Shown here: piece after piece, positions 41,627 through 62,714 of the stretch
How the letters are laid out: each line of letters starts with the position of its first letter
Position numbering within the stretch: the first letter of the stretch is position 1
Origin: Acidobacteriota bacterium
GTDB lineage: Bacteria; Actinomycetota; Acidimicrobiia; Acidimicrobiales; Ilumatobacteraceae
NCBI GenBank assembly: GCA_018970175.1
Contig: JAGWWV010000001.1
Coordinates: 29,605-93,604 of the forward strand
Direction: 5' to 3'
Length of the DNA stretch: 64,000 nt
The notes under the pieces: model-generated
Databases searched by the model: none
Seen by the model: the letters and a program-made list of their open reading frames with translations, nothing else
What the model was told of the DNA's origin: nothing
Translations under genes and position numbers: made by a program

Positions 41627-42171
41627 GCGGGTTCCGCCACTTCGCCGTCGGGGAGGGTCGTGTTGCATGCAAAGAAGGCCGCCACGAGCTCGGCTTGCCT
41701 GGTGGCACCGAGAACTGCATCGGTGAACTTCGCATCGGTGGCAAAGGCCCCCGCAAAGTCGGCGGCATCGATCTGCGCGCCGCGCAGAGAGGCGCTGCTG
41801 AGGCGTGACCGCGCGAGGTTCGCACCTGCCAGGTTTGCCTCGTCGAGCGAGGCCCGTACGAGTGCTGCACCGGCGAGGTTCGCACCCGCGAGATTCGCCC
41901 CAATCAGGTTCGCATCGGTAAGGTTCGTACCCGAGAGATTCGCTCCGGCAAGATCCGCCTCACGCAGATCGATTCCCGACAGGTCGATCCCCGACAGGTC
42001 GGCCCCCACCAGGTCGGCACCGCGGCACGCGCCGCGCGCCACGGGCGTGCAGGTTGCGACAGTGGTTCCGACGACGACCGCATCGTTCGCGGTCGTGTCG
42101 TTTCCGTCCCCGCACGCCCCGAGAACGACGGCGCACACGCCAACTGCGGCAATCCGGACAAAGCGCTTCAC
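41620..42171 (-). CDS. exported pentapeptide-repeat lipoprotein
   Basis: The lipobox is VVLGAC-GDG, followed by ~25 tandem pentapeptides (ADLVGADLSGIDLSGIDLREADLAGANLSGTNLTDANLIGANLAGANLAGA...). The GTG start overlaps the upstream stop (GTGA). Confidence 0.85.
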   Translation of the reverse strand: MKRFVRIAAVGVCAVVLGACGDGNDTTANDAVVVGTTVATCTPVARGACRGADLVGADLSGIDLSGIDLREADLAGANLSGTNLTDANLIGANLAGANLAGAALVRASLDEANLAGANLARSRLSSASLRGAQIDAADFAGAFATDAKFTDAVLGATRQAELVAAFFACNTTLPDGEVAEPAC

Positions 42172-43919
42172 GGTGCGGGTTCGACCACTTCGACGGCGGT
42201 GTTCCGTTCGACGTCGCTCAGCACGACGGTTTCTTCGCTGAGTGGGAAATACACCTCGATGCGATGCGCTGGCTCGATTCCACCACCCAGACCGACACGC
42301 AGGAGCGCGGTGTCCTGCGAGAGATACGTCCCTGTCGTTCCGGTGAAGTACTTCTTCGTCGGCCCGCCGGGCAACGCGGTCACCGACACGATCGCCCCGA
42401 GAGCATCACGGTTGCTGCGCGTGCCCACCACGCGAATGTCGACGTAACGACCGACGACGGGCGTGACATTGTGGAAGAACGCGGGCGTCTCGGCATCGCG
42501 GGTGACGAGCAGGTCCATACGACCATCGTTGTCGGCATCGAATACGAGGGTCCCCTTGGTGGGTTTGGTCTCGATAACGCCGACCCTGACAGCTACCTCG
42601 TCGTAGGTGTCGGTGCCATCGTTGCGCCAGTACATGACGGGGTCTTTCGCGTGGCAGCCCGCGGGGTTCGACCAGGGCTCGTCGATACCGGCTGCCTGCA
42701 CGAGGTCGCGGGACCCGGAGTTGGTTGCATCGATGAAGCTCGCACCCCAACCCCAACCGCCGTCGCGTACTCCGGCGCGGTCGGTGATGTCGTCGAACAC
42801 GCGGTCCGTGCCGTACTGGTAGAGCCGGTTGCCCGTTCCGACCAATCCACTGTCGTCCTTGCAGTCCGACAGCGACTTGATTGACGAGATGAAGAGTGTT
42901 GGCTTCTGATCAGGCCCATGGAAGTCGACGGCAAGACCCATGCCGTTCTCCTCTCCCCCGAGTCCCGACTCGTAGGTGGTGTTGTCGAACGTCCCGTCTC
43001 GGTTGTTCCAGAACAACTTCGTGGTGTTGAAGTCGGCTACGACGGCCAGATCGGGGTACCGGTCACCGTCGAAATCGGTGAAGATCGAACTGAACGTCCA
43101 CGTCGTGTCGACCACGGAATCGACACGCGTTTTTGCCACCTCGGTGACGTCTTCGAAAACACCGGGCTTGCCCTGCGCACCGAGATTGCGGAACAGCCGG
43201 GAGTGCGACGGCACACCGAGGTTCGCCACGATCGACGACTGCCATTCGTTGGTGTGCATGTCGATCCAACCGTCGAGGTCGTAGTCACCGAACGAAACAC
43301 CCTGGCCAGCGTGCGGTTCACCGTCGACCATGCCGACCCCGCGTGCCACGGCCTCCTCGGTGAACTTCCCCGTCCCGTCATTCACGAGGAGATACATCTG
43401 CGGCGATGCGATGCCCGTGAGGACCACGTCCTTGTCGCCGTCGTTGTCGATGTCGGCAAAGCCGACACCATTCGTTGCACCTTCGACGAGATCGAAACCC
43501 GACCCGACCGTGGCGTCGCGGAACATCGGTTCGCCGGGTGTGCTTTCGTTCACGTAGAGGATCGGATGACCCGTGAGACGGGTGAAAACCACGTCGTCGA
43601 GACCGTCACCGTTGACATCTACCGCGGCGGCACCCGAAGTCATCCGTTCGGGCACGCACTGGTTGAACCGCAGACCCGACGCAACACCCGCCTCCTGCAA
43701 CTTCGGAAACATCACGGCCAGTTTCGACTTGCTGAACAGGCAGGTGGCGGCGTCGTTGCGCGCACCCTGGGTTGCGGTGAAACCGACAGCCGCGCCCTTT
43801 TCGACAAACGTCGGCAGCGTGTCGGGGATCACGGGTTCGAGTTTTTGGTTGGCCGAACCCGAACAGCCGAGCGCGGCTGCCGGAACCAGCACGAGTGCCA
43901 GTACCGACAGCCGCGCCAT
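42168..43919 (-). CDS. CRTAC1-family lipoprotein (FG-GAP/VCBS repeats plus UnbV/ASPIC C-terminal domain)
   Basis: From the ATG at 43919 the product begins MARLSVLALVLVPAAALGC-S. It has repeated Ca-binding-like DxDxDG loops (DVNGDGLDD, DIDNDGDKD, DYDLDGWID, DFDGDRYPD, DADNDGRMD). The C-terminus NRDALGAIVSV...YLSQD... is typical of UnbV_ASPIC. Confidence 0.8.
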   Translation of the reverse strand: MARLSVLALVLVPAAALGCSGSANQKLEPVIPDTLPTFVEKGAAVGFTATQGARNDAATCLFSKSKLAVMFPKLQEAGVASGLRFNQCVPERMTSGAAAVDVNGDGLDDVVFTRLTGHPILYVNESTPGEPMFRDATVGSGFDLVEGATNGVGFADIDNDGDKDVVLTGIASPQMYLLVNDGTGKFTEEAVARGVGMVDGEPHAGQGVSFGDYDLDGWIDMHTNEWQSSIVANLGVPSHSRLFRNLGAQGKPGVFEDVTEVAKTRVDSVVDTTWTFSSIFTDFDGDRYPDLAVVADFNTTKLFWNNRDGTFDNTTYESGLGGEENGMGLAVDFHGPDQKPTLFISSIKSLSDCKDDSGLVGTGNRLYQYGTDRVFDDITDRAGVRDGGWGWGASFIDATNSGSRDLVQAAGIDEPWSNPAGCHAKDPVMYWRNDGTDTYDEVAVRVGVIETKPTKGTLVFDADNDGRMDLLVTRDAETPAFFHNVTPVVGRYVDIRVVGTRSNRDALGAIVSVTALPGGPTKKYFTGTTGTYLSQDTALLRVGLGGGIEPAHRIEVYFPLSEETVVLSDVERNTAVEVVEPAP

Positions 43920-43942: not shown

Positions 43943-46900
43943 TCACCGAATGCCGTAGCGACGACCGTCGTAGTCGACCCAGATGCTGGTCGGGTTGACC
44001 GAGAAGCCTAGGCCGAGGCTCACCCAGTTGGACCAGCCGGTCCAACCGTCGTTCCACCAACACTTCGGCTTCCAGGCACGACAACCCGCGTCGATGTAGT
44101 AGCGCGAACCCTGGACGCTGACCGTACCGCTCGCACTGAACGAGAAGTATGGCGACCAGCTGTAGATCCGCAGCGATGCATTGACGCTGGCCGACAGGCG
44201 CAGCTTCACGACAACGAGGTACACCTCGCCCGAGTTCCAGTTGAAGCCGGAGTTCACGGAGAAGTCGAAGCTACCGTTCGCGTTGATGTTGCCCGAGAAC
44301 CAGAAGCCGATACCTGCCGTCTCGAAGTAACCCGAGACGCTGAAGTACGTGCCACCGCGGTAACGCTGGCCGTTCCAGTAGGCGACGTTGCCCATCTTGA
44401 GGGTGCCGCCCGCGCGGACGATACCGAGCGAGACGCTGACACCGATGCTGGCGTCGAATGTGCCGTCGGCATTGATGGCGATCGAACCGCTACCCGAGAT
44501 ACCCGGCACCTGCAGCGACACCGACGCCGACATTCCTTCGCGGCCGGGCTCGTTCGAGATGGTGAACGAACCGCTCGCTGCGACACCGGCTGCCGACAAC
44601 GAGGCGTTGCCGGTCATGGTGAAGCGGAAGGCGTTGTTGGTGCGCGAGAAGTTGCCACTGAAGCCGACGTCAACCGCACCCAGAACTCGGATGTTGGTCG
44701 ACAGTGCGAAGGCCCAGTTGGCGCCCGACTTGCTTCCGCTCACGTTGACCGCGGCGGAGAATCCGACGAGATTCAGGTTGCCGCTGCCGGCAAAGCGGAA
44801 GTTGCCATCTGTGCCGAAGTCACCACTGACGCTGAGGTTGCCGCCGATGTTGCCCGATCCGATCGAGAACGAAGCGTTGAACCGTGCGTAGGCGACGCCG
44901 CTGGCGCGTCCCACCAGCACCGACCCGCTGGCACCGAAGCCACCGAGGTTGATGGTGATGTTGTCGGCCCCGACACGGAAGTCACCGGCTGCCGCCGTGA
45001 CGGTTTGTCCGTCACGGTTGACGATGGTGATACCCGATCCGGCCGCCCACACCACCTGACCGGTGAGCTGGGCGCTGAACACGCCGCCCACCGAGATGGT
45101 GCCGGTGATCTTGACCTGGTTCTTGTCGACGACACCGGTCACTCGACCGAAGTCGTAGCCGGCAACCGAGCCCGTCGCATCGAATGCGAGCGTCGGGAAC
45201 TGGCCGTCCTTGTAGTCGATCGAGAACGTGCCGTCGATCTTGACGACGCCCGCAATCGTTCGGACCGCCCGGACGTTGGCCTTCAAAGTCTGCAACTTGA
45301 AGTTCGACATCGACATCGCGAAGTCGACCTGCGTGACGGCACCGAGGAAGTTGAAGTCACCTCGTGCCTGGACCTCGGCGAAGCCATTCTTCGGTCGCAC
45401 GTTCACACGCACGGCCGCTGAACGGATCTCGAGGAAGCCCGGGACGATACTGAGGTTGTCGACGCTGCCCGTCAGGTCGACCCACGGTCCATCGGTGACG
45501 TTGTAACCGATGTTGCCGTTGACCGAGACCTTGGTGCTGCCGATCGTGATGCCACCGGCGAAGGCGACGAACGATTCGGTTGGCGACACCTTGATGGTGA
45601 GACGGGTCTCATCGACCTGAACACCACCAGCGCGGAACGCACCGATCGCCAGGCTGGCCTCGAGCGAGAACGGATTGGTTCCGATCTTCGCGCGAACATC
45701 GACCGGAGTGCCGAGAACGGTGCCAGAGAAACCGACCGAAATACCCGGGTCGAGGATCTGGTTGCCGATCTGGCAGCCGAGCGGCGCGATGGTGAGATCC
45801 ATGAACGTCGAGGTGAGAACCCCGCTGCCCACGTTGATGACCTTCGCCGAGCCTGCCGAGATGGTCTTGCCATCACCACCGAGCGTGCCCGCCTTGAACT
45901 GGAAGCACGGCTTCGTGACGTCGATGTTCGCCATCAGACGAACCGCGACACCGGCCTCCATGCCAAGCGGCTTCTTCCATGCGTCGGGCAACTGTGCCGT
46001 TGCCGCAATACCAATGGTCGGCAGCGGGAACGGAGTCGTTGCAAAGTTGATACCCACCTGAATGGCGGCGTCGGACAACGTGAGACCGCTGATACCGAAG
46101 GCGTTCTTCCACTCGTAGGGCTTGCCTGTCGTCGAGTCGATGCCGAGGCTGAGTGCCATCGAGATTGCGGTGGTCGAGACCGTGCCGCGCACCTCGAGCG
46201 GGATCGGGGTCTGACCCGAACCGGTGATGAACTCGATGTTGCCGATGAGGCTCATCGACGGAGTCGGGCTGCCACCGATCTCCACGCCGAATCCGGCGAA
46301 GCGCATCGAGAGCGAGCTCGTCTTGAAGAGGAACCAGTCACCCGGGGTCGGGAGCATGATCTTGAGCGTCGGCAGCTTGCCCGCTGCCAGGTCCTTCAGC
46401 GGCACCGTCACCGGCACCACATTGAGACTCGGTTGCTTGACCATGTCCTTCAGCCACTGCGGAACCTTGAAACCCGCGAGGAGCGTCGGGTTGTTGAGCG
46501 GAATGTCGACCTTGCCGAGGTTCGGCGCGTTCGGCAACGTCACCTGCAGCGCGTTGTAGGTCGCAAATGCGAACGACGCGTTGGTGAGTGTCGGGCCGCC
46601 GGGGATCGGCGTCCAGTCGTTCATGCCGCCCGAGACGATGACGCCCTGTGCGGAGAACGTTGCCGACATCGACAACGTCGTGCCGAGAACGTCGGCGCTG
46701 CCCGCGACACTGGCCGAGAGACCGCCCTGTGTTGCATAGGCAACCGCGAGGGTCGGGGCCTTGATCGTGACTCCTGCGGTGACCGGGAGATCGGCGAACA
46801 CCGCCTTCAGTTCCGACCTGTCCTTGGTGAACGTGCCGGTCAGTGTCGCAGGCGTTGTCCAGCCCTGTCCGACGTTGACCGAGACCCTGCCGGTGGCGGT

Positions 46901-49900
46901 GAAGACAAGTTCGCACTTGCCTCCAACCTGACATGTGGCCGTCACGGCCGCACCGGGCTCACTCACCCTGACGCCGGGTCCGGCAGCCGAACCGACCGGG
47001 AACCAGTCGGTGATGCCCTTGAAGGCGAGGCTGAAGGTGCGGGTCTGGTCCTTGCGAACCATCGTGCCGGTGAGGTTGCCGAGCGGCAGGCTGAATCCGG
47101 GGAACGGCGACCATGACGTCGTGCCGCCCGTCGGCTTCACCGTCACCTGGAACGAGTAGTCGGTGGACGACACGTAGTTCAGGTTGAAGCCCAAGACGAT
47201 CGGTGTCGTCGGAGTCGAGATCTCGATGTCACCCGTACCGGTTGCCTGAACGGAACCGGTGGTGTTGTTCAATTTGAGGTCGAGCGAGGCCACCTTCACA
47301 CCGTCGATGACGGTGAGTGGCTGCTTCACCTTGGCCGAGATGTCGTAGACGAGGTTCTTGCCCGTTCCTTCACGCGAGAATGTTCCGGTGATGTTGGTTG
47401 CGTTCGAGTCGTAGGTTGCCGTGAGCGAGAACGCTCCGCTGGCAAGGGTCATGTTGCCCTCGACCTTGACCGCACCGAAAGTGAGAGTGGTGCTTCCCGA
47501 CAGCTGCTTCACGACGTCGGGGGTCGGCATCGACAGCACGAGGCGTGGTGCGCCTGCGGGCAGGCTGATGGCCGGCAGCGACGGGAAGTTCGGAACCTTC
47601 GGCGTCCAGTTGATGTTGCTGGGCGCGCGCAGCGCCCAGGCGAACTGACCACCGTCGAAACCGATGTCGGAGTTCGGGAACTTGAACGACGGGAAATCGC
47701 CCGTGAGCAGGACGCCCGCCGAGCTGAAGTTGACGTTCGCATTCAGGGTCGCGCCGAAGAGCGCGAACGTGCCCGACAACGAAGCCGATGCACGGTCGGT
47801 GCTGGTCTTCGGCGGGATCGCCAAACTGAAGGTCGGTGCCAACAGCTTGATGTCGGCGTTGAACGCGAGGTCGTTGAACTTCGCAGAGAATGCAAAGCCC
47901 TTGTCGTCGAGTTTCCCGCTGATCTCCGCCGAGTTCAGACCCGTGATACCGAGGTCGAAGCCGAGCGTGCCCTTCAGGTCGAACGCCGGGACGCACTTGG
48001 CACCCGTGTTGCAGGTGACAGACGCCTTGGCCGACACGTTGGTGACACTCAGCCCGCTGACCGGCTTCCACGGACCAGCCGTCGACAAGTTGACGTCGAG
48101 GACGCTGCCTGCGGCGGTGCGCTTGAACGTACCGCTCGCCTGACCGAGGCTCAATGCCTCGCCACCGGTGACCGCAAACGACGGGGCCGTTGCTCCGGCC
48201 GACACGGTGACCGTGAAGTCGGTGGCCGAGTTGTAAGCAACCGCGCCGGCGACGGTGACGACCGTCGAATCGGGCAGCTTCACGTCAACCGAACCGTTGC
48301 CGGTGAGGGTGAGCGGGCCACCCGCCGTTGCGTTGCCGAAGGTGACGTCGAGCGTGGTGATCGACACCGAGTCGGTGAGGGCGATGGCCTTCTTCACCTT
48401 GCCGGTGAGGTTGTACTTGAACGGATCTCCGGTCTTCTCGCGGCTGATTGCACCCGCAAGGTCGATCGAATCGTTCGACAACGATGCAGCGAGGCTGAAC
48501 TTGCCGGTCGAGAAGTCGACTTCGCCGTCGAGGGCGATGTCACCGACATTGCTGACCGTTGCCGAAGCGAGACCCTTGATCTGCTCGGGCAGTGCGATTG
48601 CCATGTTGAGACGCGGCACCTTGGGTGTGAGGTTGACGGACTTGATGTTCGGCAACGACGGCACCTTCGGTGTGATCGAGATCGGACCCGACGACCAGCT
48701 GAGCTGACCCGGCTTCCAGACCGGACCGCTTGCGCCGAACGGCGCGAGCTCCGGCAGATCGGCGGTCAGCAACACGCCGGTCTTCGAGAACGTGGCCGAA
48801 GCACTGACGGTCTTTTCGAACACGGTCATCGAACCCGCCAACGTGACGGTGGTCGCCGCGTTGGCTGCACCGATGTTGGTGGAATCGATCGAGAGCGACG
48901 CCGAGGTGATGTCGAGACCCGCGACGAGCGGAATCTTGTCGAGCGACGCCTTCAGCGAAGCGGTCTTGTTCGTGATGTCGACCGCGCCGGTGATCTTGCC
49001 GGTTGTCGAAGTTGAACCAAGGGTCACTTCCGCACCCGAGTCGAGGTTGACCTTCACATCGCAGGCACCCGTGGCCGGGCATTGTGCAGTCGCCTTGATG
49101 GTGGGTGCAACGAACTTGAGACCCGAGAACGGCGAGACATCGCCACCAACGACGGTGACGTCGATTGTCTTCGCGCCGTCCTTGGCAACGTACGAACCCG
49201 ACGCGCTGGCGAGCGGGATGGAGATGTCCTTGCCCGGGCTCCACTTCCCACCCGTTGTCGCGGCCTTCACCGCGAACGAATGGTTGTTGGCATCGGTGTA
49301 GTTGAGATCGGCAGTCACCGCGAGTGCGGTGTCCCCGGAACCAATGGTCATCGTGCCGGAGCCGGTGATTGCACCACCCTTGTCGTACGACGCCGACAAT
49401 GCCGTGATCTTCACGTTCGACGTGAGGGCGATTTCACCCTGGAGTGCGCCTGCAAGGCTCACCGCAACGTCGGCCTCGGGAGTTTCACGCTTCACCGAAC
49501 CGGTGAAGTCGATCGTCGAACCAAAGAGTTCGAACCCATTGGCGAGCGATGCGTCGAGGGAGAACGTGCCGTTCGTGGCGACTGCACCCGCAATGCGGGC
49601 CGTCGGCTTCTTGCCGTTCTTCTCGGGACCGGTTGCAGTTGCCTCGAGGCTGACGGCCTTGCCACCCTCGGCATCAACGCTGAAGGTCAGCGTCGCTGCG
49701 GGTGTCCAGCCAGCGGGCAGCTTGAGGAACGGCATCGAGCCGGATTCGATCTTGCCTTCGAAGGCGCCGATGGCGACCGACGCACGCGAGAACGGGATGA
49801 AGAGACCGACGGGGTCGGTTCCACCGATCGAGAACACGGGTGAACCCCACGACTCGGGTCCGGTGAATGTCGCCGAGCGGATGGTGAGACCCGCGGCACT

Positions 49901-52900
49901 GATCGTGCCACTGGCACCTGACACGGTGAGATAACCAGCGAGCGAGAACCCGGCGTTCGAGAACGACACCTTCGAGCTCTCCGAACACGTCGAGGAGTTC
50001 ACCTTGAGCTGTGACAGATCAAGATTGCCGATACCGATCGCCTTGTAGGTCGCTTCGAGCTTGGAAGAGGTGTTCGTCGAGATTGCCTCGACGAAGTCAC
50101 ACAACGGAGTTGGTGCACCGCTCGGGTTCATCTGCAGTGTGATCTGGTCGGTCGCACTGGCGCCGGTGGCGTCGGTGGCGGTGACCAAGATGACCGCGGT
50201 GCCGATTGCAGCCGACGCCGCAATCGAGAGCGCTGCAGTGTTTGCGCCGTTCAGCGTGAGAGCAGGACCCGACACCTGTGACCAGGCGTAGGTAATGGCA
50301 CCCGAACCAGTGGCGGTTGCGTTCAGTGCAACTGCTTTCGCCGTGTCGACCGCCAATGGACCTTCGCCCTCGGCGATGTTCGCCGACAACGTGGCAGCGC
50401 CACCGGTGCCGACAACGACGGTGACGACGTCGGTTGCCTTCTCACCGCGCGAGTCGGTGGCAACCACACGGAGGCTGATGGTCGTGTTCGCGGCGGGTGC
50501 GGTGAATGCAACCGTCGCGGTGTTCGTGGCTGCTGCTGCAAGCACCGACGGTGTCGGACCTGCGGCCTGCGACCATGCGTAGGTGACGGCGCCCACGCCC
50601 GAAGCCGCAGCAGTAACCGACACCGCGGCACCTTGCGCGACGGTGAGTGTGGAACCACCGAAGATGTTGCCGTTGACGGTGACGCCGGCGTTGGCCGACG
50701 TCAGAACGGAGGTGTCACCCGCGCCGGATGTGGGCGCGGTAGCAGCGAATGCGCGAACGCTCGGCCCCGACTGCTTCGGCACGCGACGCAGCACGGACGA
50801 ACCGCTACCGCTTCCGGCCTTACCGGTCGGACCCTGCGCGGTCGGCAATGGCTGGACGCGCACGGAGAAGCGTGCGGTGTGCGAGGTTCCGGCCTCGTCG
50901 AGTGCCGTTGCTTCGAATACCAGCGTCTCTTCGGCCTTCACCGCGGGTGCGAGCAGGTTCGCCGTGGGGCCCGTGGACGGGGCGTCGTTGACCCACTTGG
51001 CCGCTGACGTGACGGCCTTGCACTGTCCGTTCGACGCCTTCACATCGGCGTCGGTGGTGCAGAGCTGGCGCCACGTGAACTTCGAGCCATCGGCGTTGCC
51101 AACGGTCGTGAGAAGAATCGACGAGGGCATGCGCTTGCCCGTTGCGTCGACGATCTGGTCGACGATGACGTCGGGTCCCTGGATCGAGAACGACAGGGGT
51201 GCGCGCAGGTCGATTTCCTGCGTCGAGGTTTGGCTGGTTGGCTGGCCGTAGATGTTCGAGACGATCGACGTCGCCTGCAGCACCATCTTCTTTGCCTTGG
51301 GGTCACTCGACTGGTAGTCGACGGCGACGGCCTTCGACACTTCGCCGACCTTCAACGGCAGCTTGCGCGAGCAGGCGATGAACCCCTCGGCGATGAATCC
51401 GCCGACAACTGCACAGCTCCAACCCTCACCCTTGGCACCGGTCAAGCGACCGCCCTTGGTCTTGATGATCATCGACTGGGCGTTGGAGTCGGCCGTGCCT
51501 TCGTTCTTCACGCTGAACTGCGCGGCGGCCTTGCCACCCGGACGTGGTCCTGCGGGTGCGGCGATCGCTGCGGTGAGTGCGGGTTGCTGCTTGACGATGG
51601 TGATGCCCATGCCGTAGCGCGCGACCGGAGCGGTCTTCACCGTGGGCAGTGACGCGTACACCGGCCACTCGGGCTTGCCCGGCTTGGCCGAATTTGCGGC
51701 CTCGACCGTGAGGTTGAGAATCGGTGTCTGGGCCTCGGGGGCAACGGCTGCTGCGAGAGTCAGCTCGCAACGAATCGCTGCACCCTTCTTGCCCGGTGTG
51801 GCAACGGGAGCCGGAGCGGCGATGGCTTCACCCGCGCCCGCGAGGGACTCGGGCAACTGCACCACGGGGGGCGTGCCCTGACCTGCAACGCAGGCCCACT
51901 GGCCCGGTGTTGCAGGGATCTTCTTTCCATCGAGATCACCCTTGAAGTCGGCGTCCTTCGGTGCCGACTTGCCCGAGAAGATCGCGAAATCGGAAACGAA
52001 CTGTTCGAGGCGAACGACGGTTCCCGCCGCGATCGGAACTGCGCCGAGGTTCGACACTGCAAGGCCGTAGCTCGCCTTCTTGCCGACGACGATCTCGGTC
52101 GTCGAGCCATCGCTGACCGCCTGGGTTGCACCCTTCTCATCGGCGCGCGTGAAGACGATGCCGGGCATGGCGGCCGGAGCAGGCTGCACGAGCAGCGTCT
52201 GACCGGAGCGGTTGTTCTCGACCTTCGCTGCATCTTCGTTCTCGGCGGAGATGACGCTGATGACCTGGGCCGCGCCCGTTTCTGTTTCCTCGGTCGTCGT
52301 GAACTTGAAGGCAATCGTCTCTTCGGCGGTGTCGAACAGTTCGGCCTTCACGCACTTGAGCGCGGTCGAACCCTCGCCTGCGGCGGGGTCGGCGGCGGCA
52401 GAAGCACAGGTCCAGCCGGGTGATCCGTCGGCTGCCTTCTCCATCGTGACGCCCTTGCGGACACCGACGGTGACGGCGACGTTCTGGCCGATGCCGTTGA
52501 TCGAACGCACCTTCGCGTCGACGAGCAGAGTGCCGGGTGCGACCATGCTGGTCTTGCCGTCACGGGCGATGACCTTCGCCACGAGATCGGGCTTCGGCGC
52601 CTCGTTGATCTGCGACGTGAGCTCGGCGAGAGCCTCGAGCTGCGTGCCATCGGCCTTCACGCGGCTGACCGAGTTGACCTTCCACGTGAACGGCTGGGCC
52701 GTCACTGCTGCGGTTTTCGACGTGCGGCCTTCGATGATGAGGGGCTCACTGAAGAAACTCGGCTGAATTTCGCCGCCGGTGCGCGTGCAGCGCTTCGGCG
52801 CGGCGGGGTCGTCGCAGGTCCAGCCGTTGCCCGAGATCTTCACATCGGTGAGGCCGATCTGTGCGGGAAGGATGTCGGTGAAAGTGATGTCACCCGAAAA

Positions 52901-53920
52901 GGCCTGATCGCACACCGGAAGGGTGCGCAGGACGATCTTGAATCGACCACCGGGGTAGGTGTTGCCGGACGGTTCACCATCGACATAGACACATGAACTA
53001 CGACGAGTGTCGTCGGCGGCGCTGGTGCCCGCGTTGCTACGCGGTGCACCGAGAACTGCAAGTGCGAACTCGTCGTTCTCCGGGGCGACGTCACCCGCGA
53101 GTGACGCGCGGACGAGGAAGTGCGGCACGGTGCGCGACAGCGCCTGGATGCCGGCGATGTCGCGCTTCTCCGCGAGGTCGTTGCTCTTGGTCGTGTACGC
53201 ATCGTCCGCGACGAAGAGCTCCGCATCTGGTGCGTAGTTCACGCGCAGATCGGCGCGCACGACACCCGCAACGGGGATGATGCCGCTCGAGATTCCCGCA
53301 TCGGTCTTCTGCTTGAGCGTGCACGATGTCGCGTTGCACTCCCAGCCCTGGTCGCCAATGGCCGACTTGTCGTTCAATGTGGGCAGGACTTCGAGCACCT
53401 TGACGCCACGCGGCAACTTGGCGAGCGAGAACGAGACGGGTGCCTCGATACCGGCAGCCACATTACCCATGTTCGACAAACGAACGATGACGACCGCATT
53501 GAGGTCGGTCGTGACGACGCTGGTTTGGTTGGCGGAAGCCATGATGTCGGGACCCGACTTCGTGTTGCCGGCGGTTGCGGGCGGCAGCGTCGAGGCGGGT
53601 GCGGTTGTGGCGGGCACCAAGTCGACGTTGTCGGGCTTGGCGTCGCTCGGCAACGGTGCGAGCAACGTGTTGTCGAGACCCGGAATGGTGGTGGGCACGG
53701 CAGTATCGGTTGCAGCGGGTGCGGCAGCACCCGGGACCGTCGTCGTGGTGGCATCACCGGAAGCGGGCGCACCCGTGGTGGTGGTCGCCTCGGCTGCCGG
53801 AGCAGCGGTGGTCGTCGTCGGATCGTTCGGGCTGCTGGCGCCGACCGGGGTGATGTCGACGATCGCGATGCTGATCGCGGCCGTTGCCAATGCAAATTTC
53901 TTGAAGCTATTCATGCTCAT
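43943..53920 (-). CDS. giant exported protein of unknown function (~3325 aa)
   Basis: This is an uninterrupted ORF. The ATG at 53920 overlaps the upstream stop (ATGA) and opens MSMNSFKKFALATAAISIAIV..PVGA, a signal peptide (the ORF track starts 3 codons earlier, at 53929).
Regions in order:
- a T/A/P-rich linker;
- several DUF11/CARDB-like beta-sandwich patterns;
- two PKD-like units (xxTYAWSQxxGP);
- three ~355-aa modules;
- a ~770-aa Gly/Ser/Asn/Phe-rich beta-type tail ending in a Trp-rich segment. Confidence 0.85.
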   Translation of the reverse strand: MSMNSFKKFALATAAISIAIVDITPVGASSPNDPTTTTAAPAAEATTTTGAPASGDATTTTVPGAAAPAATDTAVPTTIPGLDNTLLAPLPSDAKPDNVDLVPATTAPASTLPPATAGNTKSGPDIMASANQTSVVTTDLNAVVIVRLSNMGNVAAGIEAPVSFSLAKLPRGVKVLEVLPTLNDKSAIGDQGWECNATSCTLKQKTDAGISSGIIPVAGVVRADLRVNYAPDAELFVADDAYTTKSNDLAEKRDIAGIQALSRTVPHFLVRASLAGDVAPENDEFALAVLGAPRSNAGTSAADDTRRSSCVYVDGEPSGNTYPGGRFKIVLRTLPVCDQAFSGDITFTDILPAQIGLTDVKISGNGWTCDDPAAPKRCTRTGGEIQPSFFSEPLIIEGRTSKTAAVTAQPFTWKVNSVSRVKADGTQLEALAELTSQINEAPKPDLVAKVIARDGKTSMVAPGTLLVDAKVRSINGIGQNVAVTVGVRKGVTMEKAADGSPGWTCASAAADPAAGEGSTALKCVKAELFDTAEETIAFKFTTTEETETGAAQVISVISAENEDAAKVENNRSGQTLLVQPAPAAMPGIVFTRADEKGATQAVSDGSTTEIVVGKKASYGLAVSNLGAVPIAAGTVVRLEQFVSDFAIFSGKSAPKDADFKGDLDGKKIPATPGQWACVAGQGTPPVVQLPESLAGAGEAIAAPAPVATPGKKGAAIRCELTLAAAVAPEAQTPILNLTVEAANSAKPGKPEWPVYASLPTVKTAPVARYGMGITIVKQQPALTAAIAAPAGPRPGGKAAAQFSVKNEGTADSNAQSMIIKTKGGRLTGAKGEGWSCAVVGGFIAEGFIACSRKLPLKVGEVSKAVAVDYQSSDPKAKKMVLQATSIVSNIYGQPTSQTSTQEIDLRAPLSFSIQGPDVIVDQIVDATGKRMPSSILLTTVGNADGSKFTWRQLCTTDADVKASNGQCKAVTSAAKWVNDAPSTGPTANLLAPAVKAEETLVFEATALDEAGTSHTARFSVRVQPLPTAQGPTGKAGSGSGSSVLRRVPKQSGPSVRAFAATAPTSGAGDTSVLTSANAGVTVNGNIFGGSTLTVAQGAAVSVTAAASGVGAVTYAWSQAAGPTPSVLAAAATNTATVAFTAPAANTTISLRVVATDSRGEKATDVVTVVVGTGGAATLSANIAEGEGPLAVDTAKAVALNATATGSGAITYAWSQVSGPALTLNGANTAALSIAASAAIGTAVILVTATDATGASATDQITLQMNPSGAPTPLCDFVEAISTNTSSKLEATYKAIGIGNLDLSQLKVNSSTCSESSKVSFSNAGFSLAGYLTVSGASGTISAAGLTIRSATFTGPESWGSPVFSIGGTDPVGLFIPFSRASVAIGAFEGKIESGSMPFLKLPAGWTPAATLTFSVDAEGGKAVSLEATATGPEKNGKKPTARIAGAVATNGTFSLDASLANGFELFGSTIDFTGSVKRETPEADVAVSLAGALQGEIALTSNVKITALSASYDKGGAITGSGTMTIGSGDTALAVTADLNYTDANNHSFAVKAATTGGKWSPGKDISIPLASASGSYVAKDGAKTIDVTVVGGDVSPFSGLKFVAPTIKATAQCPATGACDVKVNLDSGAEVTLGSTSTTGKITGAVDITNKTASLKASLDKIPLVAGLDITSASLSIDSTNIGAANAATTVTLAGSMTVFEKTVSASATFSKTGVLLTADLPELAPFGASGPVWKPGQLSWSSGPISITPKVPSLPNIKSVNLTPKVPRLNMAIALPEQIKGLASATVSNVGDIALDGEVDFSTGKFSLAASLSNDSIDLAGAISREKTGDPFKYNLTGKVKKAIALTDSVSITTLDVTFGNATAGGPLTLTGNGSVDVKLPDSTVVTVAGAVAYNSATDFTVTVSAGATAPSFAVTGGEALSLGQASGTFKRTAAGSVLDVNLSTAGPWKPVSGLSVTNVSAKASVTCNTGAKCVPAFDLKGTLGFDLGITGLNSAEISGKLDDKGFAFSAKFNDLAFNADIKLLAPTFSLAIPPKTSTDRASASLSGTFALFGATLNANVNFSSAGVLLTGDFPSFKFPNSDIGFDGGQFAWALRAPSNINWTPKVPNFPSLPAISLPAGAPRLVLSMPTPDVVKQLSGSTTLTFGAVKVEGNMTLASGAFSLTATYDSNATNITGTFSREGTGKNLVYDISAKVKQPLTVIDGVKVASLDLKLNNTTGSVQATGTGDIEISTPTTPIVLGFNLNYVSSTDYSFQVTVKPTGGTTSWSPFPGFSLPLGNLTGTMVRKDQTRTFSLAFKGITDWFPVGSAAGPGVRVSEPGAAVTATCQVGGKCELVFTATGRVSVNVGQGWTTPATLTGTFTKDRSELKAVFADLPVTAGVTIKAPTLAVAYATQGGLSASVAGSADVLGTTLSMSATFSAQGVIVSGGMNDWTPIPGGPTLTNASFAFATYNALQVTLPNAPNLGKVDIPLNNPTLLAGFKVPQWLKDMVKQPSLNVVPVTVPLKDLAAGKLPTLKIMLPTPGDWFLFKTSSLSMRFAGFGVEIGGSPTPSMSLIGNIEFITGSGQTPIPLEVRGTVSTTAISMALSLGIDSTTGKPYEWKNAFGISGLTLSDAAIQVGINFATTPFPLPTIGIAATAQLPDAWKKPLGMEAGVAVRLMANIDVTKPCFQFKAGTLGGDGKTISAGSAKVINVGSGVLTSTFMDLTIAPLGCQIGNQILDPGISVGFSGTVLGTPVDVRAKIGTNPFSLEASLAIGAFRAGGVQVDETRLTIKVSPTESFVAFAGGITIGSTKVSVNGNIGYNVTDGPWVDLTGSVDNLSIVPGFLEIRSAAVRVNVRPKNGFAEVQARGDFNFLGAVTQVDFAMSMSNFKLQTLKANVRAVRTIAGVVKIDGTFSIDYKDGQFPTLAFDATGSVAGYDFGRVTGVVDKNQVKITGTISVGGVFSAQLTGQVVWAAGSGITIVNRDGQTVTAAAGDFRVGADNITINLGGFGASGSVLVGRASGVAYARFNASFSIGSGNIGGNLSVSGDFGTDGNFRFAGSGNLNLVGFSAAVNVSGSKSGANWAFALSTNIRVLGAVDVGFSGNFSRTNNAFRFTMTGNASLSAAGVAASGSFTISNEPGREGMSASVSLQVPGISGSGSIAINADGTFDASIGVSVSLGIVRAGGTLKMGNVAYWNGQRYRGGTYFSVSGYFETAGIGFWFSGNINANGSFDFSVNSGFNWNSGEVYLVVVKLRLSASVNASLRIYSWSPYFSFSASGTVSVQGSRYYIDAGCRAWKPKCWWNDGWTGWSNWVSLGLGFSVNPTSIWVDYDGRRYGIR
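46250..49440 (-). repeat. three divergent tandem ~355-aa protein modules inside the giant CDS
   Basis: Several landmarks recur at a period of ~1065 nt:
- NVKITALSASY / SVSITTLDVTF / GVKVASLDLKL;
- a C-x-x-G-x-x-C loop (CPATGAC near 49075, CNTGAKC near 48005, CQVGGKC near 46922);
- SMTVFEKTVSASATFSKTGVLLT / SGTFALFGATLNANVNFSSAGVLLT / SADVLGTTLSMSATFSAQGVIVS. Confidence 0.75.
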
Positions 53921-54990
53921 TTCGCACATCCTGTCGAAGCGAAGCCGGTGAGAGCCCGGGCGTCACCCGAGCTCGCAAAAACTGGACGGTAAGTGGGCGT
54001 GGCGAAAGCCACCCGATCGATTGCGGCGCGTTGGCGCACGAGGCTCGCGGTTTCGGCCGTCGCGCCCTTCAGCAACTTGGCTGCATCCGCGAGGAGAATC
54101 TTCGGGCCGCCGTTCTGGAGCGCCGACGTGCAGTTGGCCACCGACCAGATTTGGTTCTTCCAACGCAGTTCGCCGATACCCAGTTCGACGTTGCGGCAGG
54201 TGGCCGCGGTGTCACCCGAACAGCCGAGCGCCCAGTCGCGGATTGCGTTGCCGGTCTTTTGCGCCTCGGCACTTGCGGGGTCACCGATGAGGACTTCGAA
54301 GCCCCAACCGCTGCCCTGGTACTGCCCGACTCCGACCGCAGTCGCATCGAGGCCCCGGACTCCGGTGATCCCCGAGCCGGGAAGGGTTGCCGCGAGCAGG
54401 GCCTTCACCACTTTCTTTGCGGTGGGCGAAAGGAAGGCGCAGTTGTCGCACGGTTTGCCGTTGACCGTCCAACGAAGCGTGAGCGGAGTGGCAGTACCCG
54501 ACCATTCGGCCGCAGTGACGTTGAGAATGCCGTCGGCGTCGGCGCGGTACGTGGTGCCGACTGCCTTGGCCGCGTTTGTCGTGATCGATGCCTCGGCGGG
54601 AAGTGCGGGGCGCGGAGAGCCGAGCGGGTCAGTGGTTGCGAGATACGTCGCCTGGTAGCCGCCCGGGTCCTTCACTTTGGTGACTTCGGGAACCGTCACC
54701 TCGGGTGCAGCAGTTGTTGCAGGTGACGCAGTGGTCTCTGTCGTCGCGGCTGCGGTGGTTGCCGGCGCAGTAGTCGTTGTCGGAGCAACGGTTGTTGCGG
54801 GTGCCGTTGTTGTCTCGGTTGTCGCCACCGCAGTTGTCGTGGGTAGCGCGGCGTTCTTCACGCGCGTCGATGCGGTTGTGTCATTCGACGACGAGTCGGA
54901 TGACCCGCCGCACGAAGCCAACACGACCATGGCCGCGATGACCCCGGTCAAGAACGATCGTTTCCTCATGATTGATGTACCTCTCATCAT
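53917..54990 (-). CDS. exported lipoprotein of unknown function
   Basis: The lipobox is VVLASC-GGSS, followed by a ~75-aa T/A/P-rich linker containing ASTRVKNAALPTTT and a ~250-aa Cys-containing globular region. The ATG overlaps the upstream stop (ATGA). An alternative start is at 54969 (MRKRSF). Confidence 0.7.
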   Translation of the reverse strand: MMRGTSIMRKRSFLTGVIAAMVVLASCGGSSDSSSNDTTASTRVKNAALPTTTAVATTETTTAPATTVAPTTTTAPATTAAATTETTASPATTAAPEVTVPEVTKVKDPGGYQATYLATTDPLGSPRPALPAEASITTNAAKAVGTTYRADADGILNVTAAEWSGTATPLTLRWTVNGKPCDNCAFLSPTAKKVVKALLAATLPGSGITGVRGLDATAVGVGQYQGSGWGFEVLIGDPASAEAQKTGNAIRDWALGCSGDTAATCRNVELGIGELRWKNQIWSVANCTSALQNGGPKILLADAAKLLKGATAETASLVRQRAAIDRVAFATPTYRPVFASSGDARALTGFASTGCAK

Positions 54991-55505
54991 TTCCCGGGCT
55001 CACAGTTCGCCTTCACCCACGTCTGCACGTTGGCGGACGCGGTGTTGGCATCGGATGTTGCGAATTGTTCGATCAGCGAGTTGAACTTGTCCAAAGTCGG
55101 GTCGCCGGAAATTGCCTCGGCCATTCCGCGCGCTGCGGTGGCAACCGCATCGGCATCGGCCTTCACATCGCTCGGTGCGACCGCTGCCATCTCTTCGAGT
55201 GCCGTGGCATTCGCCGACAACTTCTCGGCGATCGCGGCGGGGTCGTCGTCGGCTGCGATGTCGGCGCCGCCCTGGTTGTCGAGTGCCGACTTGCAGAACT
55301 CTTCAACCGACCCCGTTGCTGCTGCAGCAGCGGTGTCGGTTGTTTCACCTTCTGCGTCGGCTGCAACCTCGGTGGTGTCGGCAGTCGATTCATCGTTCGA
55401 TGACGAGTCGGAACCACCGCATGCACCCATCGCAAACGCACCGACGATGCACACAGCAAAAAATTTTCCCCTCGCACGACGAACGCTCACCGCTGCCCCC
55501 TTCAA
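54987..55505 (-). CDS. small exported lipoprotein of unknown function
   Basis: The lipobox is FAMGAC-GGSD, followed by an acidic T/A/D/E linker and a ~100-aa helical-looking region. The GTG at 55490, preceded by GAAGGGGG, may be the real start instead of the TTG at 55505. Confidence 0.65.
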   Translation of the reverse strand: MKGAAVSVRRARGKFFAVCIVGAFAMGACGGSDSSSNDESTADTTEVAADAEGETTDTAAAAATGSVEEFCKSALDNQGGADIAADDDPAAIAEKLSANATALEEMAAVAPSDVKADADAVATAARGMAEAISGDPTLDKFNSLIEQFATSDANTASANVQTWVKANCEPGK

Positions 55506-55626: not shown

Positions 55627-56160
55627 TCAGCCCGCGAGGGCGGTCAAACGTCCCGCGACTTCGGACGCCGAGGGGGCCCCGAGCACAAGTTCACGAGAGC
55701 CATCGGCACCCTGGAACACCCATGCCGGCTGGCCCGACACGCCGAAAGAGGCGAAAATCGACCCGTCCGGGTCGCGCACGTTGGTGAAGGTCAGGCCGTG
55801 GCGCGACACAAAGTCGTCGATTTCGTCCTCGCTGCCGTTCCAGCCGACACCGACAACCGTGACCTTCCCGGCCCACTTCTTGCTTGCCGCCTCGACCGAG
55901 GGGGCTTCGCTGTTGCAGGTGCCTCAATAAGGCGCCCAGAACCAGAAGGCGACGGGTGACCCGTTGTACCGCGACCCGAAGTCGCCGGACGGTGGCGTGA
56001 CCGTCTCCGGCGTCGCTGCTGGCATTGTCGAATCCACGGTCGACGCGGACGCGTTGGCACTCGTCGCGACGACTGCTGCGTCACTCGGTTGCGTGGCGTC
56101 CTCGGCACAGCCCGCTACCAGAGCGCATGCGAGAAGCGCGACACCGATCGGACGTTTCAT
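55627..56160 (-). CDS. MPT53/DsbE/TlpA-like thioredoxin-fold lipoprotein with an in-frame TGA at the first CxxC position (candidate selenoprotein, or pseudogene)
   Basis: The ATG at 56160 overlaps the gatB stop (ATGA), and the lipobox is LVAGC-A. Hand translation across 55926..55924 (TGA) stays in frame with no further stop: ...VAFWFWAPY-TGA-GTCNSEAPSVEAASKKWAGKVTVVGVGWNGSEDEIDDFVSRHGLTFTNVRDPDGSIFASFGVSGQPAWVFQGADGS.... This is the TlpA/MPT53 layout, where WxWxPWCxxCxxEAP is expected. Confidence 0.55.
55886..55905 (-). promoter_or_regulatory. SECIS-like hairpin downstream of the in-frame TGA
   Basis: The mRNA sequence GCC-C-CCUC[GGUC]GAGG-C-GGC starts 19 nt after the UGA. It forms 3+4 bp with one C-C mismatch. 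Its apical loop GGUC matches the loop sequence I recall for the E. coli fdhF SECIS. Confidence 0.3.
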
Positions 56161-59032: not shown

Positions 59033-59327
59033 GCAGACCGCCCGATGGTGGCACGCGGAACCGACCGTCCTCGGCCGCAGGTGCGACCGACAGAACTTCG
59101 TCGCGGTCGAGACAGGGTTGTTCGACGTCGGGGCGCAACACGTTGACGAGCGGGTACGGCTGCGTCATCGGCTCGACGTTCGCCAGTTCGAGACTGTCGA
59201 TGTCGGCAAAGTGGTCGAGCATTCCGTCGAGTTGACGCGTGTAGCGTTCGACTTCCTCTGGCGAAACGTTGAGACGCGCAAGGCGCGCAACTTTCGCCAC
59301 ATCGGCGGCGGTGAGACGCTGTGACAC
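59025..59327 (-). CDS. gatC: Asp-tRNA(Asn)/Glu-tRNA(Gln) amidotransferase subunit C
   Basis: The 100-aa product begins VAKVARLARLNVSPEEVERYTRQLDGMLDHF..., a GatC pattern, and sits at the head of the gatCAB order. Confidence 0.9.
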   Translation of the reverse strand: MSQRLTAADVAKVARLARLNVSPEEVERYTRQLDGMLDHFADIDSLELANVEPMTQPYPLVNVLRPDVEQPCLDRDEVLSVAPAAEDGRFRVPPSGGLHE

Positions 59328-59338
59328 GACGTGGGATG

Positions 59339-60983: not shown

Positions 60984-60986
60984 CGA

Positions 60987-61751: not shown

Positions 61752-61761
61752 TCACTCAGTG

Positions 61762-61779
61762 TAGACACGGTGGTGTCTA
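61762..61779. promoter_or_regulatory. perfect 7-bp inverted repeat in a divergent intergenic region
   Basis: TAGACAC-ggtg-GTGTCTA lies between the hydrolase start (61751, -) and the M48 peptidase start (~61791, +). Confidence 0.3.
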
Positions 61780-61790
61780 GCCTCGGTCGC

Positions 61791-62681: not shown

Positions 62682-62714
62682 TCGAAAACTTCGTGCAGCG
62701 GTAGCCTGCCGCAC

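What the first reader, a model, noticed from the sequence alone, without database searches (positions are those of the whole stretch)
43943..53920. A ~3325-aa exported protein with almost no recognisable domains
This is an uninterrupted ~10-kb ORF with a Sec signal peptide and a T/A/P-rich linker. I recognise only generic beta-sandwich-like patterns:
- DUF11/CARDB-style strands such as VVIVRLSNMGNVAAG, ASYGLAVSNLGAVPIAAG and AAQFSVKNEGTADSNAQ in roughly 50930-53510;
- two PKD-like units.

The remaining ~2200 aa (modules plus tail) match nothing I know. There is no catalytic motif, anchor motif, RTX, RHS/YD, haemagglutinin or collagen-type repeat. The composition is dominated by G, S, T, A, V and N with regularly alternating hydrophobic residues, which suggests an extended all-beta architecture.

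A protein this large that is translationally coupled to a dedicated lipoprotein upstream is a strong candidate for a new family of surface structure.
Basis: inference. Interest (0 to 1): 0.75.

Follow-up and report, generated by a model that had tools for sequence, protein, structure and literature searches.

The report
Giant secreted all-beta protein, new family
A real 3,325-residue secreted protein of freshwater Ilumatobacteraceae has a C-terminal 2,000 residues that match no known family and are predicted to form one very long two-faced beta-sheet; relatives with this core occur across Actinomycetota and none has been studied.

Summary
Window 43943-53929 (minus strand) is one ORF of 3,328 codons; the likely start is 53920, giving 3,325 aa. 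It overlaps the stop of an upstream lipoprotein gene by ATGA.

Pfam, NCBIfam and PDB sequence searches recognise only two PKD domains. The N-terminal ~960 aa give only weak CARDB/DUF11 signals, seen in relatives and not in the window protein.

The last ~2,040 aa consist of a 'pre' region, three 355-aa modules and an 820-aa tail. They match no curated family or solved structure. AlphaFold2 predicts about 130 beta-strands joined by tight hairpins. One face is V/F/I/L/A/G, the other S/N/T/G. Foldseek finds only generic low-TM similarity to ApoB100 and LptD.

Full-length collinear orthologues (3,318-3,358 aa) occur in freshwater Ilumatobacteraceae. They always sit in a translationally coupled cassette: small lipoprotein, 350-aa Cys-rich lipoprotein, giant. 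The pre-module-tail core sits at the C-terminus of 312 representative proteins, including ones from cultured Ilumatobacter coccineus and Nocardioides. All that carry a name are 'hypothetical' or are named only after a PKD/Ig-like domain.

My best reading is a disulfide-stabilised envelope fibre built on a new beta-meander core. A hydrophobic-cargo conduit or belt is the interesting alternative. Function is untested.

The parts
43943..53929 (-). Giant ORF: 3,328 aa from the first ATG; probable start at 53920 (3,325 aa); stop codon at 43943-43945
   Evidence: 13 collinear orthologues of 3,318-3,358 aa
53837..53920 (-). Sec-type signal peptide (aa 4-31, MSMNSFKKFALATAAISIAIVDITPVGA|SS)
   Evidence: read from the sequence; no predictor was run
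53546..53836 (-). Thr/Ala/Pro-rich acidic linker (aa 32-128)
   Evidence: composition
50660..53545 (-). N-terminal ~960 aa with recurring N-x-G...W-x-C...C motifs and seven local Cys pairs. Probably diverged Ig-like (CARDB/DUF11-CLIPPER-like) stalk domains. This is the most divergent part of the protein.
   Evidence: no PDB sequence match
50075..50659 (-). Two K319L-like PKD domains (aa ~1091-1285)
   Evidence: E 8e-15; 41% identity between copies
49574..50074 (-). 'Pre' region (aa 1286-1452), conserved ahead of the first module in many distant relatives
48506..49573 (-). Module 1 (aa 1453-1808)
47441..48505 (-). Module 2 (aa 1809-2163): about 25 predicted beta-strands, a CxxxxxC loop and a Pro-rich end segment
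46400..47440 (-). Module 3 (aa 2164-2510)
43946..46399 (-). Tail (aa 2511-3328): 58 predicted strands in a hairpin meander, strictly two-faced, with a Trp-rich extreme C-terminus and two Cys pairs
53917..54990 (-). Partner lipoprotein (357 aa): lipobox LASC, TAP-rich linker, conserved 250-aa domain with six invariant Cys. Its stop overlaps the giant's start (ATGA).
   Evidence: no Pfam or PDB match
54987..55505 (-). Small lipoprotein (172 aa; lipobox GACGGS; two invariant Cys). Its stop overlaps the start of the 357-aa lipoprotein gene.

Best explanation
This is a Sec-exported, disulfide-stabilised giant protein of the cell envelope of a freshwater Ilumatobacteraceae bacterium.

Shown:
- It is made from a three-gene, translationally coupled cassette: a 172-aa lipoprotein, a 357-aa Cys-rich lipoprotein, then the giant.
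- Its order of parts is signal peptide, Thr/Ala/Pro linker, ~960 aa of diverged Ig-like sandwiches, two PKD domains, then a ~2,040-aa core (pre, three modules, tail).
- That core defines a previously undescribed protein family of Actinomycetota.
- The core is predicted to be a nearly uninterrupted antiparallel beta-hairpin meander of about 130 strands, with one hydrophobic face and one Ser/Asn/Thr/Gly face.

Inferred:
- The hydrophobic face is buried by the sheet curving or folding onto itself. Glycines on that face at mid-strand are conserved, which fits this. The result would be a long rigid body.
- This conserved C-terminal body is the envelope-proximal, function-defining part. It is held or assembled by the two membrane-tethered lipoproteins.
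- The fast-evolving Ig-like N-terminal half projects outwards as the exposed, variable stalk.

It would then act as a structural or adhesive surface fibre, alongside the neighbouring surface proteins (FG-GAP lipoprotein, PAP2-like protein, 4,461-aa RCC1/Big_2/lectin giant).
For: - Export: the signal peptide and 13 strictly local Cys pairs.
- Stalk domains: PKD confirmed; CARDB/DUF11 signals in relatives. DUF11/CLIPPER is a documented stalk domain of fibrillar adhesins (PMC12617251).
- All-beta meander: AF2 tail model, pLDDT 80.8, 58 strands; two-module model, pLDDT 77.5, 51 strands.
- Two-faced strands: mean hydropathy +2.1 against -1.1 in the window protein, kept across 78 relatives (+1.9 against -0.9). 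The hydrophobic face is the more conserved, and mid-strand Gly on it is up to 95-100% conserved.
- Conservation gradient: the N-terminal 900 aa are 23-50% identical among distant orthologues; modules and tail are 50-70%.
- The core sits at the extreme C-terminus in relatives whose N-terminal halves differ.
- The cassette is conserved with 4-nt overlaps, including at a second genomic site.
- Neighbours are all exported or surface-type proteins.
Against: - No anchor motif is present: no LPXTG near the C-terminus, no SLH domain and no terminal TM helix.
- No adhesive domain is recognised.
- The orientation (C-terminus proximal) is inferred only from conservation. The Thr/Pro linker right after the signal peptide would fit the opposite orientation equally well.
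- The AF2 alignments were shallow (14 and 7 sequences) and pTM was only 0.45 and 0.56.
- Model coordinates could not be inspected, so how the hydrophobic face is buried is not shown.
- Distant relatives lack the lipoprotein partners.
Confidence: 0.45

Rival explanations
1. Hydrophobic-cargo conduit or belt. The ~130-strand two-faced sheet forms an open groove, or wraps lipid, and carries or holds hydrophobic molecules (lipids, fatty acids, pigments) across or on the thick cell wall. It would be a functional analogue, in a single-membrane bacterium, of TamB/AsmA/Lpt bridges or of the ApoB100 beta-belt, with the lipoproteins at the membrane end.
For: - The best Foldseek matches to the tail are lipid-handling beta-sheets: ApoB100 (E 8e-8) and LptD-LptE (E ~1e-6).
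- One face is almost purely V/F/I/L/A/G and is conserved in character across the family.
- A lipoprotein partner recalls LptE with LptD.
- Low pTM despite good pLDDT fits a long flexible object.
Against: - TM-scores are only 0.1-0.23, so the matches reflect a generic hairpin meander rather than a shared fold.
- There is no sequence relation to AsmA/TamB/Lpt families in Pfam or to E. coli TamB by profile (probability 0.06%).
- There is no crossing loop every five strands as in repeating-beta-groove proteins.
- No second membrane is known in Acidimicrobiia to bridge to (general knowledge).
- A buried protein core would give the same two-faced pattern.
Confidence: 0.2
2. Lattice or coat protein. 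The hydrophobic faces of modules and tails pair between molecules, or between modules, to form a two-dimensional S-layer-like sheet around the cell, tethered by the lipoproteins.
For: - The large flat two-faced sheets need a partner surface.
- There are weak Foldseek hits to the Deinococcus SlpA/SDBC S-layer protein.
- The outer face is rich in S/T/N/G and poor in charge, as is common in exposed coats.
- Fragment clusters in freshwater metagenomes are large, up to 81 members.
Against: - No SLH or other S-layer anchoring domain is present.
- The SlpA hits have TM ~0.14.
- A ~960-aa Ig-like stalk is unusual for lattice proteins.
Confidence: 0.15
3. Outer-membrane-type beta-barrel(s) with an autotransporter-like layout: signal peptide, passenger, C-terminal barrel. 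This would imply a cryptic outer membrane in these Actinomycetota.
For: - Foldseek lists LptD, ushers, VDAC/Tom40, porins and TonB-dependent receptors.
- Each module has about 25 strands, the size of large barrels.
- The beta domain is always C-terminal.
Against: - TM-scores to every barrel are at most 0.27.
- Tyr and Trp are each 1.8% of the hydrophobic face, so there is no aromatic girdle.
- Loops are short on both edges of the sheet.
- The protein ends in ...GIR, and family C-termini rarely end in an aromatic residue.
- Strands reach 16-22 residues, longer than a membrane requires.
- Actinomycetota outside Corynebacteriales are not known to have an outer membrane or BAM (general knowledge).
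Confidence: 0.05
4. Secreted toxin or effector, for example a pore-former or a cocoon that encloses a payload as in Tc/RHS toxins.
For: - The protein is large and secreted.
- There is a weak Foldseek hit to the TcdB2-TccC3 cocoon (E 0.036).
Against: - No YD/RHS repeats, no toxin or protease domain, and no variable C-terminal payload; the C-terminus is part of the conserved beta core.
- It sits in a syntenic chromosomal housekeeping context next to gatCAB in free-living plankton.
- No immunity-like gene lies downstream.
Confidence: 0.05

Closest known systems
Fibrillar adhesins with tandem Ig-like stalks (CLIPPER/DUF11, CARDB, PKD), as surveyed in PMC12617251
   Same: Long secreted protein. It has PKD domains and probable DUF11/CARDB-like sandwiches carrying a W-x-C...C disulfide motif. 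It sits among other surface-protein genes.
   Different: No recognised adhesive head and no sorting or anchor motif. More than 60% of the protein is an unrelated beta-meander core, which is the conserved part of the family.
AsmA-like/TamB and Lpt (LptA/LptD-LptE) lipid conduits of double-membrane bacteria
   Same: Very long antiparallel beta-sheet with one purely hydrophobic face. A lipoprotein partner is present. LptD-LptE is among the best fold matches.
   Different: No sequence or profile relation. TM-scores are at most 0.2. The host has a single membrane, with no outer membrane to reach. Turns are tight hairpins rather than groove-crossing loops.
ApoB100 beta-belt of human LDL (PDB 9e9r, 9ea7)
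   Same: Top Foldseek hit. It is likewise a continuous amphipathic antiparallel sheet hundreds of residues long.
   Different: TM 0.23 and 8% identity. There is no vitellogenin-type N-terminal lipid-transfer domain. Any resemblance is analogy at most.
Type V autotransporters
   Same: Same order of parts: signal peptide, Ig-like 'passenger', C-terminal beta domain.
   Different: No PF03797-type barrel and no beta-signal. The beta domain is 10-15 times larger. The host lacks an outer membrane.
Giant1-5 surface proteins of Apilactobacillus kunkeei (PMC12863079)
   Same: Clustered genes for 3,000-8,000-aa extracellular proteins in a Gram-positive bacterium, described from AlphaFold models, with function still inferred.
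   Different: Those are built from alpha-helical repeats, an N-terminal beta-solenoid and a C-terminal SH3b wall-binding domain. None of these is present here.

Membership tests
PKD domain proteins (PF22352 K319L-like PKD) | Match to the Pfam model above its gathering score | tested here: met
   55 bits against a cut-off of 27, two stretches at aa ~1095-1281. This covers only ~190 of 3,325 aa.
DUF11/CLIPPER or CARDB Ig-like stalk domains | Match to PF01345 or PF07705 | tested here: inconclusive
   The window protein gives no hit even at E<=1. Three of 9 orthologues hit CARDB weakly (E 0.0018). Two of 18 distant relatives hit DUF11 (E 1.2e-6). The W-x-C...C motifs recur.
Fibrillar adhesin (functional class) | Stalk repeats plus an identifiable adhesive domain plus a cell-anchor motif | tested here: not met
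   Stalk-like domains are present. No adhesive domain appears in Pfam or NCBIfam. There is no LPXTG near the C-terminus and no SLH, LysM or SH3b domain.
AsmA-like / TamB (PF05170, PF13502, PF04357 and relatives) | Sequence-profile match to the clan | tested here: not met
   No Pfam hit in the window protein or in 9 orthologues at E<=1. hhalign of the core profile against E. coli TamB gives probability 0.06%.
AsmA-like / TamB | Beta-taco groove with a hydrophobic interior spanning two membranes | not testable with these tools
   Model coordinates could not be inspected. Only the amphipathic pattern and low-TM LptD/ApoB hits are available.
Outer-membrane beta-barrel / autotransporter | Closed barrel fold, aromatic girdles, C-terminal aromatic beta-signal | tested here: not met
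   TM is at most 0.27 to any barrel. Tyr and Trp are each 1.8% of the hydrophobic face. The C-terminus is ...YGIR, and relatives rarely end in F or W. There is no PF03797 hit.
RHS/YD-repeat or Tc-toxin cocoon | YD repeats (Pfam RHS_repeat) and a C-terminal payload | tested here: not met
   No Pfam or NCBIfam hit. The only fold hit, 6sup, has E 0.036 and TM 0.07.
RTX / haemagglutinin / collagen-like repeat adhesins | Corresponding Pfam repeat models | tested here: not met
   No hits.
New family proposed here: actinobacterial 'pre-module-tail' giants | C-terminal core of pre (~160 aa), one or more 355-aa modules and an ~820-aa tail, after an N-terminal signal peptide | tested here: met
   The tail profile finds 312 representatives at E<=1e-3, 98 of them at E<=1e-30, mostly with the match at the extreme C-terminus. 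Of 62 long representatives, 41 have a detectable module (33 with one, 4 with two, 4 with three). The long representatives inspected begin with signal-peptide-like N-termini.

The most novel reading that the evidence does not exclude
The pre-module-tail core is a new kind of very long amphipathic beta-sheet machine in single-membrane Actinomycetota. It would be either an open hydrophobic groove or belt that moves or holds lipids and other hydrophobic molecules across the cell wall (a Gram-positive counterpart of bridge-like lipid-transfer proteins), or the scaffold of an undescribed outer hydrophobic layer. In Ilumatobacteraceae it would be assembled with two dedicated lipoproteins.
Probability: 0.2. 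Interest if true: 0.85.

Novelty: new variant of a known kind. Interest (0 to 1): 0.6.

Why it matters
Ilumatobacteraceae and related Acidimicrobiia are abundant in lakes, and their cell surface is almost unstudied. This gene takes 10 kb of a small genome. Its length is held within about 1% across orthologues that are only about 50% identical. Its ~1,300-2,000-aa C-terminal core has no entry in Pfam, NCBIfam or the PDB, yet it recurs across Actinomycetota, including the cultured Ilumatobacter coccineus and Nocardioides yefusunii.

If the predicted continuous two-faced beta-meander is real, it is a fold class without a solved example in bacteria with a single membrane. Working out how its hydrophobic face is buried (self-packing, partner or lipid) would show whether Gram-positive bacteria have their own long beta-sheet conduits or coats. 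The cultured relatives make this testable.

Tried and rejected
- Full-length homologue search: timed out.
- Search with a profile of the three modules: nothing scored among 8,000 low-complexity candidates. Module orthologues were taken from genome loci instead.
- Tail as degenerate modules: rejected; hhalign probability is at most 1.2%.
- Clear tandem repeats in the N-terminal region: not found; best self-hit probability is 5.6%.
- PDB sequence and profile searches of the whole protein, tail, N-terminus, whole core and partner lipoprotein: no meaningful hits.
- Foldseek against the viral library: only low-TM tail-fibre and MORN-repeat matches.
- TamB relation: rejected.
- The 160-aa membrane protein upstream of the I. 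coccineus homologue as a relative of the 172-aa lipoprotein: not supported by BLASTP or hhalign.
- Conserved gene context in distant relatives (I. coccineus, Gaiellaceae, one other): none shared.
- Literature searches for a prior description (Ilumatobacteraceae giants, AsmA-like proteins in single-membrane bacteria, Acidimicrobiia envelope, giant beta-sheet proteins): nothing on this family.
- Other copies of the domain in the window: none; the 4,461-aa neighbour does not carry it.
Full report
**Observation**

The finding describes a real gene. On the minus strand, window 43943..53929 is a single ORF of 3,328 codons. At the window's base composition, the chance of 3,328 stop-free codons is about 10^-40, and third-position GC is 0.81, as expected for a coding region in this genome.

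The same junction (MC[EIA]M in the giant's frame) is kept in 13 orthologous loci.

The N-terminus reads as a Sec signal peptide: a KK n-region, a 13-residue hydrophobic core and VGA|SS. It is followed by about 95 aa that are 23% Thr, 22% Ala and 17% Pro. No signal-peptide predictor was available, so this rests on the sequence.

After the probable start, all 26 cysteines fall into 13 local pairs. That is what one expects of a disulfide-bonded protein outside the cytoplasm.

**What is recognisable**

Pfam finds only two K319L-like PKD domains at aa ~1095-1281 (E 8e-15). NCBIfam finds only the same region, through the C-terminal PKD part of an unrelated peptidase model. PDB sequences give only marginal PKD-like hits.

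- The window protein itself hits neither family even at E<=1.
- Three of nine orthologues hit CARDB (best E 0.0018).
- Two of 18 distant relatives hit DUF11 (E 1.2e-6).
- The N-x-G...W-x-C...C pattern recurs through the region.

DUF11 was recently renamed CLIPPER. It was shown to be a CnaA-like stalk domain of fibrillar adhesins that carries a small disulfide motif (PMC12617251).

**The unknown 2,040 aa**

Self-comparison shows three tandem ~355-aa modules at aa 1453-1808, 1809-2163 and 2164-2510. They are 24-32% identical and related at 99.5-99.9% profile probability. Each has an invariant CxxxxxC loop and a Pro-rich end segment.

A ~165-aa 'pre' region comes before the modules, and an ~820-aa tail follows. 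The tail is not detectably related to the modules.

Nine orthologues of this whole stretch give no Pfam hit at E<=1, and its profile finds nothing in PDB sequences.

**Predicted structure**

- Tail (14-sequence alignment): mean pLDDT 80.8, pTM 0.45, 58 strands mostly 10-16 residues long, joined by 2-4-residue turns, with only two short helices.
- Modules 2+3 (7-sequence alignment): pLDDT 77.5, pTM 0.56, 51 strands.

The core is therefore predicted to be about 130 strands of antiparallel hairpin meander.

In the tail, one strand face is V/F/I/G/A/L (mean hydropathy +2.1). The other is S/G/N/T/A/R/D (-1.1), and Tyr and Trp are scarce. Across 78 relatives the alternation persists (+1.9 against -0.9). 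The hydrophobic face is the more conserved, and several mid-strand glycines on that face are 85-100% conserved.

Foldseek against the PDB returns ApoB100's beta-belt (E 8e-8), LptD-LptE, SlpA, ushers and SprA for the tail, and LptD (E 6.5e-4) for the modules. All have TM-scores of 0.1-0.27 and RMSD of 20-50 Å. The viral library gave tail fibres and MORN repeats at similarly low TM.

I read these as matches to the generic hairpin-meander pattern, not to a shared fold. How the sheet closes or packs is therefore unresolved.

**Relatives**

A scan of one genome per species found 19 loci, all in freshwater Acidimicrobiia or Ilumatobacteraceae MAGs. A few of these are labelled 'uncultured Bifidobacterium' in their record titles.

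Twelve complete orthologues (plus one contig-truncated copy) are 3,318-3,358 aa and collinear over their whole length. Among distant orthologues the N-terminal 900 aa are the most divergent (23-50% identity). Modules and tail are 50-70% identical. Several MAGs carry two copies. L005 shows a giant's end followed directly by another lipoprotein pair.

A profile of the tail searched against 1.84 billion representative proteins found 312 hits at E<=1e-3, of which 98 are at E<=1e-30. Most are 2,000-3,600 aa with the match at the extreme C-terminus, and the long ones inspected begin with signal-peptide-like N-termini. Where names exist they are Ilumatobacter coccineus YM16-304 (YM304_04720, 3,470 aa), Nocardioides yefusunii, and Gaiellaceae, Thermoleophilia, Acidimicrobiales and Actinomycetota MAGs. 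All are 'hypothetical' or 'PKD domain-containing'.

Among 62 long representatives, 33 have one detectable module, four have two and four have three. The family signature is therefore pre-module-tail, and the triplication is a feature of the Ilumatobacteraceae clade. The N-terminal halves vary between DUF11, PKD and fn3 domains.

**Context**

On the minus strand the gene order is:
1. gatA and gatB.
2. A thioredoxin-fold lipoprotein.
3. A 172-aa lipoprotein.
4. A 357-aa lipoprotein.
5. The giant.
6. An FG-GAP/ASPIC lipoprotein.
7. A PAP2-like exported protein.
8. A 4,461-aa RCC1/Big_2/LamG/PA14 giant.

This order comes, and it is conserved in the orthologous loci.

The 357-aa lipoprotein has a lipobox (LASC), a TAP-rich linker like the giant's, and a 250-aa domain with six invariant cysteines. 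It has no Pfam or PDB relative. Its 55 homologue clusters are all at least 56% identical. In all three further contexts examined, the gene is preceded by the small lipoprotein gene and followed by a ~3,300-aa PKD-bearing giant, each with 4-nt overlaps. One of those contexts is not next to gatCAB.

Distant relatives lack these partners and share no context.

**Interpretation**

The following points are shown:
- The protein is exported and rich in probable disulfides.
- It is made from a coupled three-gene cassette.
- Its conserved, family-defining part is a very long predicted amphipathic beta-meander that belongs to no described family.

My preferred mechanism is inferred. The meander buries its hydrophobic face by curving or folding onto itself, forming a rigid elongated body. 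This conserved C-terminal body is the envelope-proximal part, handled by the two lipoproteins. The variable Ig-like half is the exposed stalk. The whole would be a surface fibre among other surface proteins.

The orientation rests only on the conservation gradient, and the N-terminal Thr/Pro linker could argue the reverse.

The main rival is a hydrophobic-cargo groove or belt. It explains the lipid-type fold matches and the purity of the hydrophobic face. It has no homology support and no second membrane to serve.

A lattice or coat role and an outer-membrane-type barrel are less likely. The barrel fails on the aromatic girdle, the terminal signal, loop asymmetry and TM-scores. A toxin role has essentially no support.

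**Novelty**

The kind of object, a giant secreted protein with Ig-like stalk domains, is known. The core that makes up 60% of it, and that defines a family across the phylum, is not in Pfam (2025 copy), NCBIfam (June 2026) or the PDB. I found no paper describing it. I therefore rate it a new variant of a known kind. There is a moderate chance that the core is mechanistically new.

**Limits**

- The AF2 alignments were shallow.
- No model coordinates or PAE could be inspected.
- No signal-peptide or lipoprotein predictor was run.
- There are no expression or localisation data.

Noticed in passing
window 55627-56160, minus strand; in-frame TGA at 55924-55926: A thioredoxin-fold (TlpA/ResA-like) lipoprotein ORF is interrupted by an in-frame TGA exactly where the first Cys of the CxxC motif should be (FWFWAPY-TGA-GTC). 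The TGA, the coding sequence on both sides and a GC-rich hairpin (GCCCCCUCGGUCGAGG) about 20 nt downstream are conserved in nine related loci. This looks like a selenocysteine (UxxC) oxidoreductase with a bacterial SECIS element. It lies between gatB and the lipoprotein-giant cassette, whose products are Cys-rich.
   Followed up: partly
window 26877-40262, minus strand: A second giant ORF (4,461 aa) has RCC1 repeats (at least 11), ten Big_2 domains, LamG, PA14/GLEYA and Lcl_C domains. It is conserved about 3.7 kb downstream of the first giant in many orthologous loci and does not carry the pre-module-tail core.
   Followed up: partly
window 42168-43919 and 40337-41668, minus strand: Two exported proteins lie between the giants. 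One is a lipoprotein with FG-GAP repeats and an ASPIC/UnbV domain, starting 24 nt after the giant's stop. The other is a PAP2 / vanadium-haloperoxidase-like protein with a signal peptide. Both are syntenic in the orthologous loci.
   Followed up: partly
L005 7695-9432; L009/L019 and L012/L016 (pairs from the same MAGs); L023: The cassette is duplicated in some genomes. In L005 one giant's end is followed directly by another lipoprotein pair. Several MAGs hold two loci. In L023 the three-gene cassette sits away from gatCAB.
   Followed up: partly
L001, L007, L015, L018 (record titles): MAG contigs titled 'uncultured Bifidobacterium sp.' carry 54-95% identical copies of this Ilumatobacteraceae-type gene and its synteny. 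The taxonomic labels therefore look wrong.
   Followed up: no
window 1-25500 and 59300-64000: The rest of the window is ordinary chromosomal metabolism: 3-hydroxyacyl-CoA and acyl-CoA dehydrogenases, a P450, a branched-chain ABC transporter, an acyl-CoA carboxylase, enoyl-CoA hydratase and an alpha/beta hydrolase. Lgt is annotated near gatCAB in the related loci L024 and L025. The giant is therefore not on an obvious mobile island, and GC content is flat at 0.61-0.66.
   Followed up: partly
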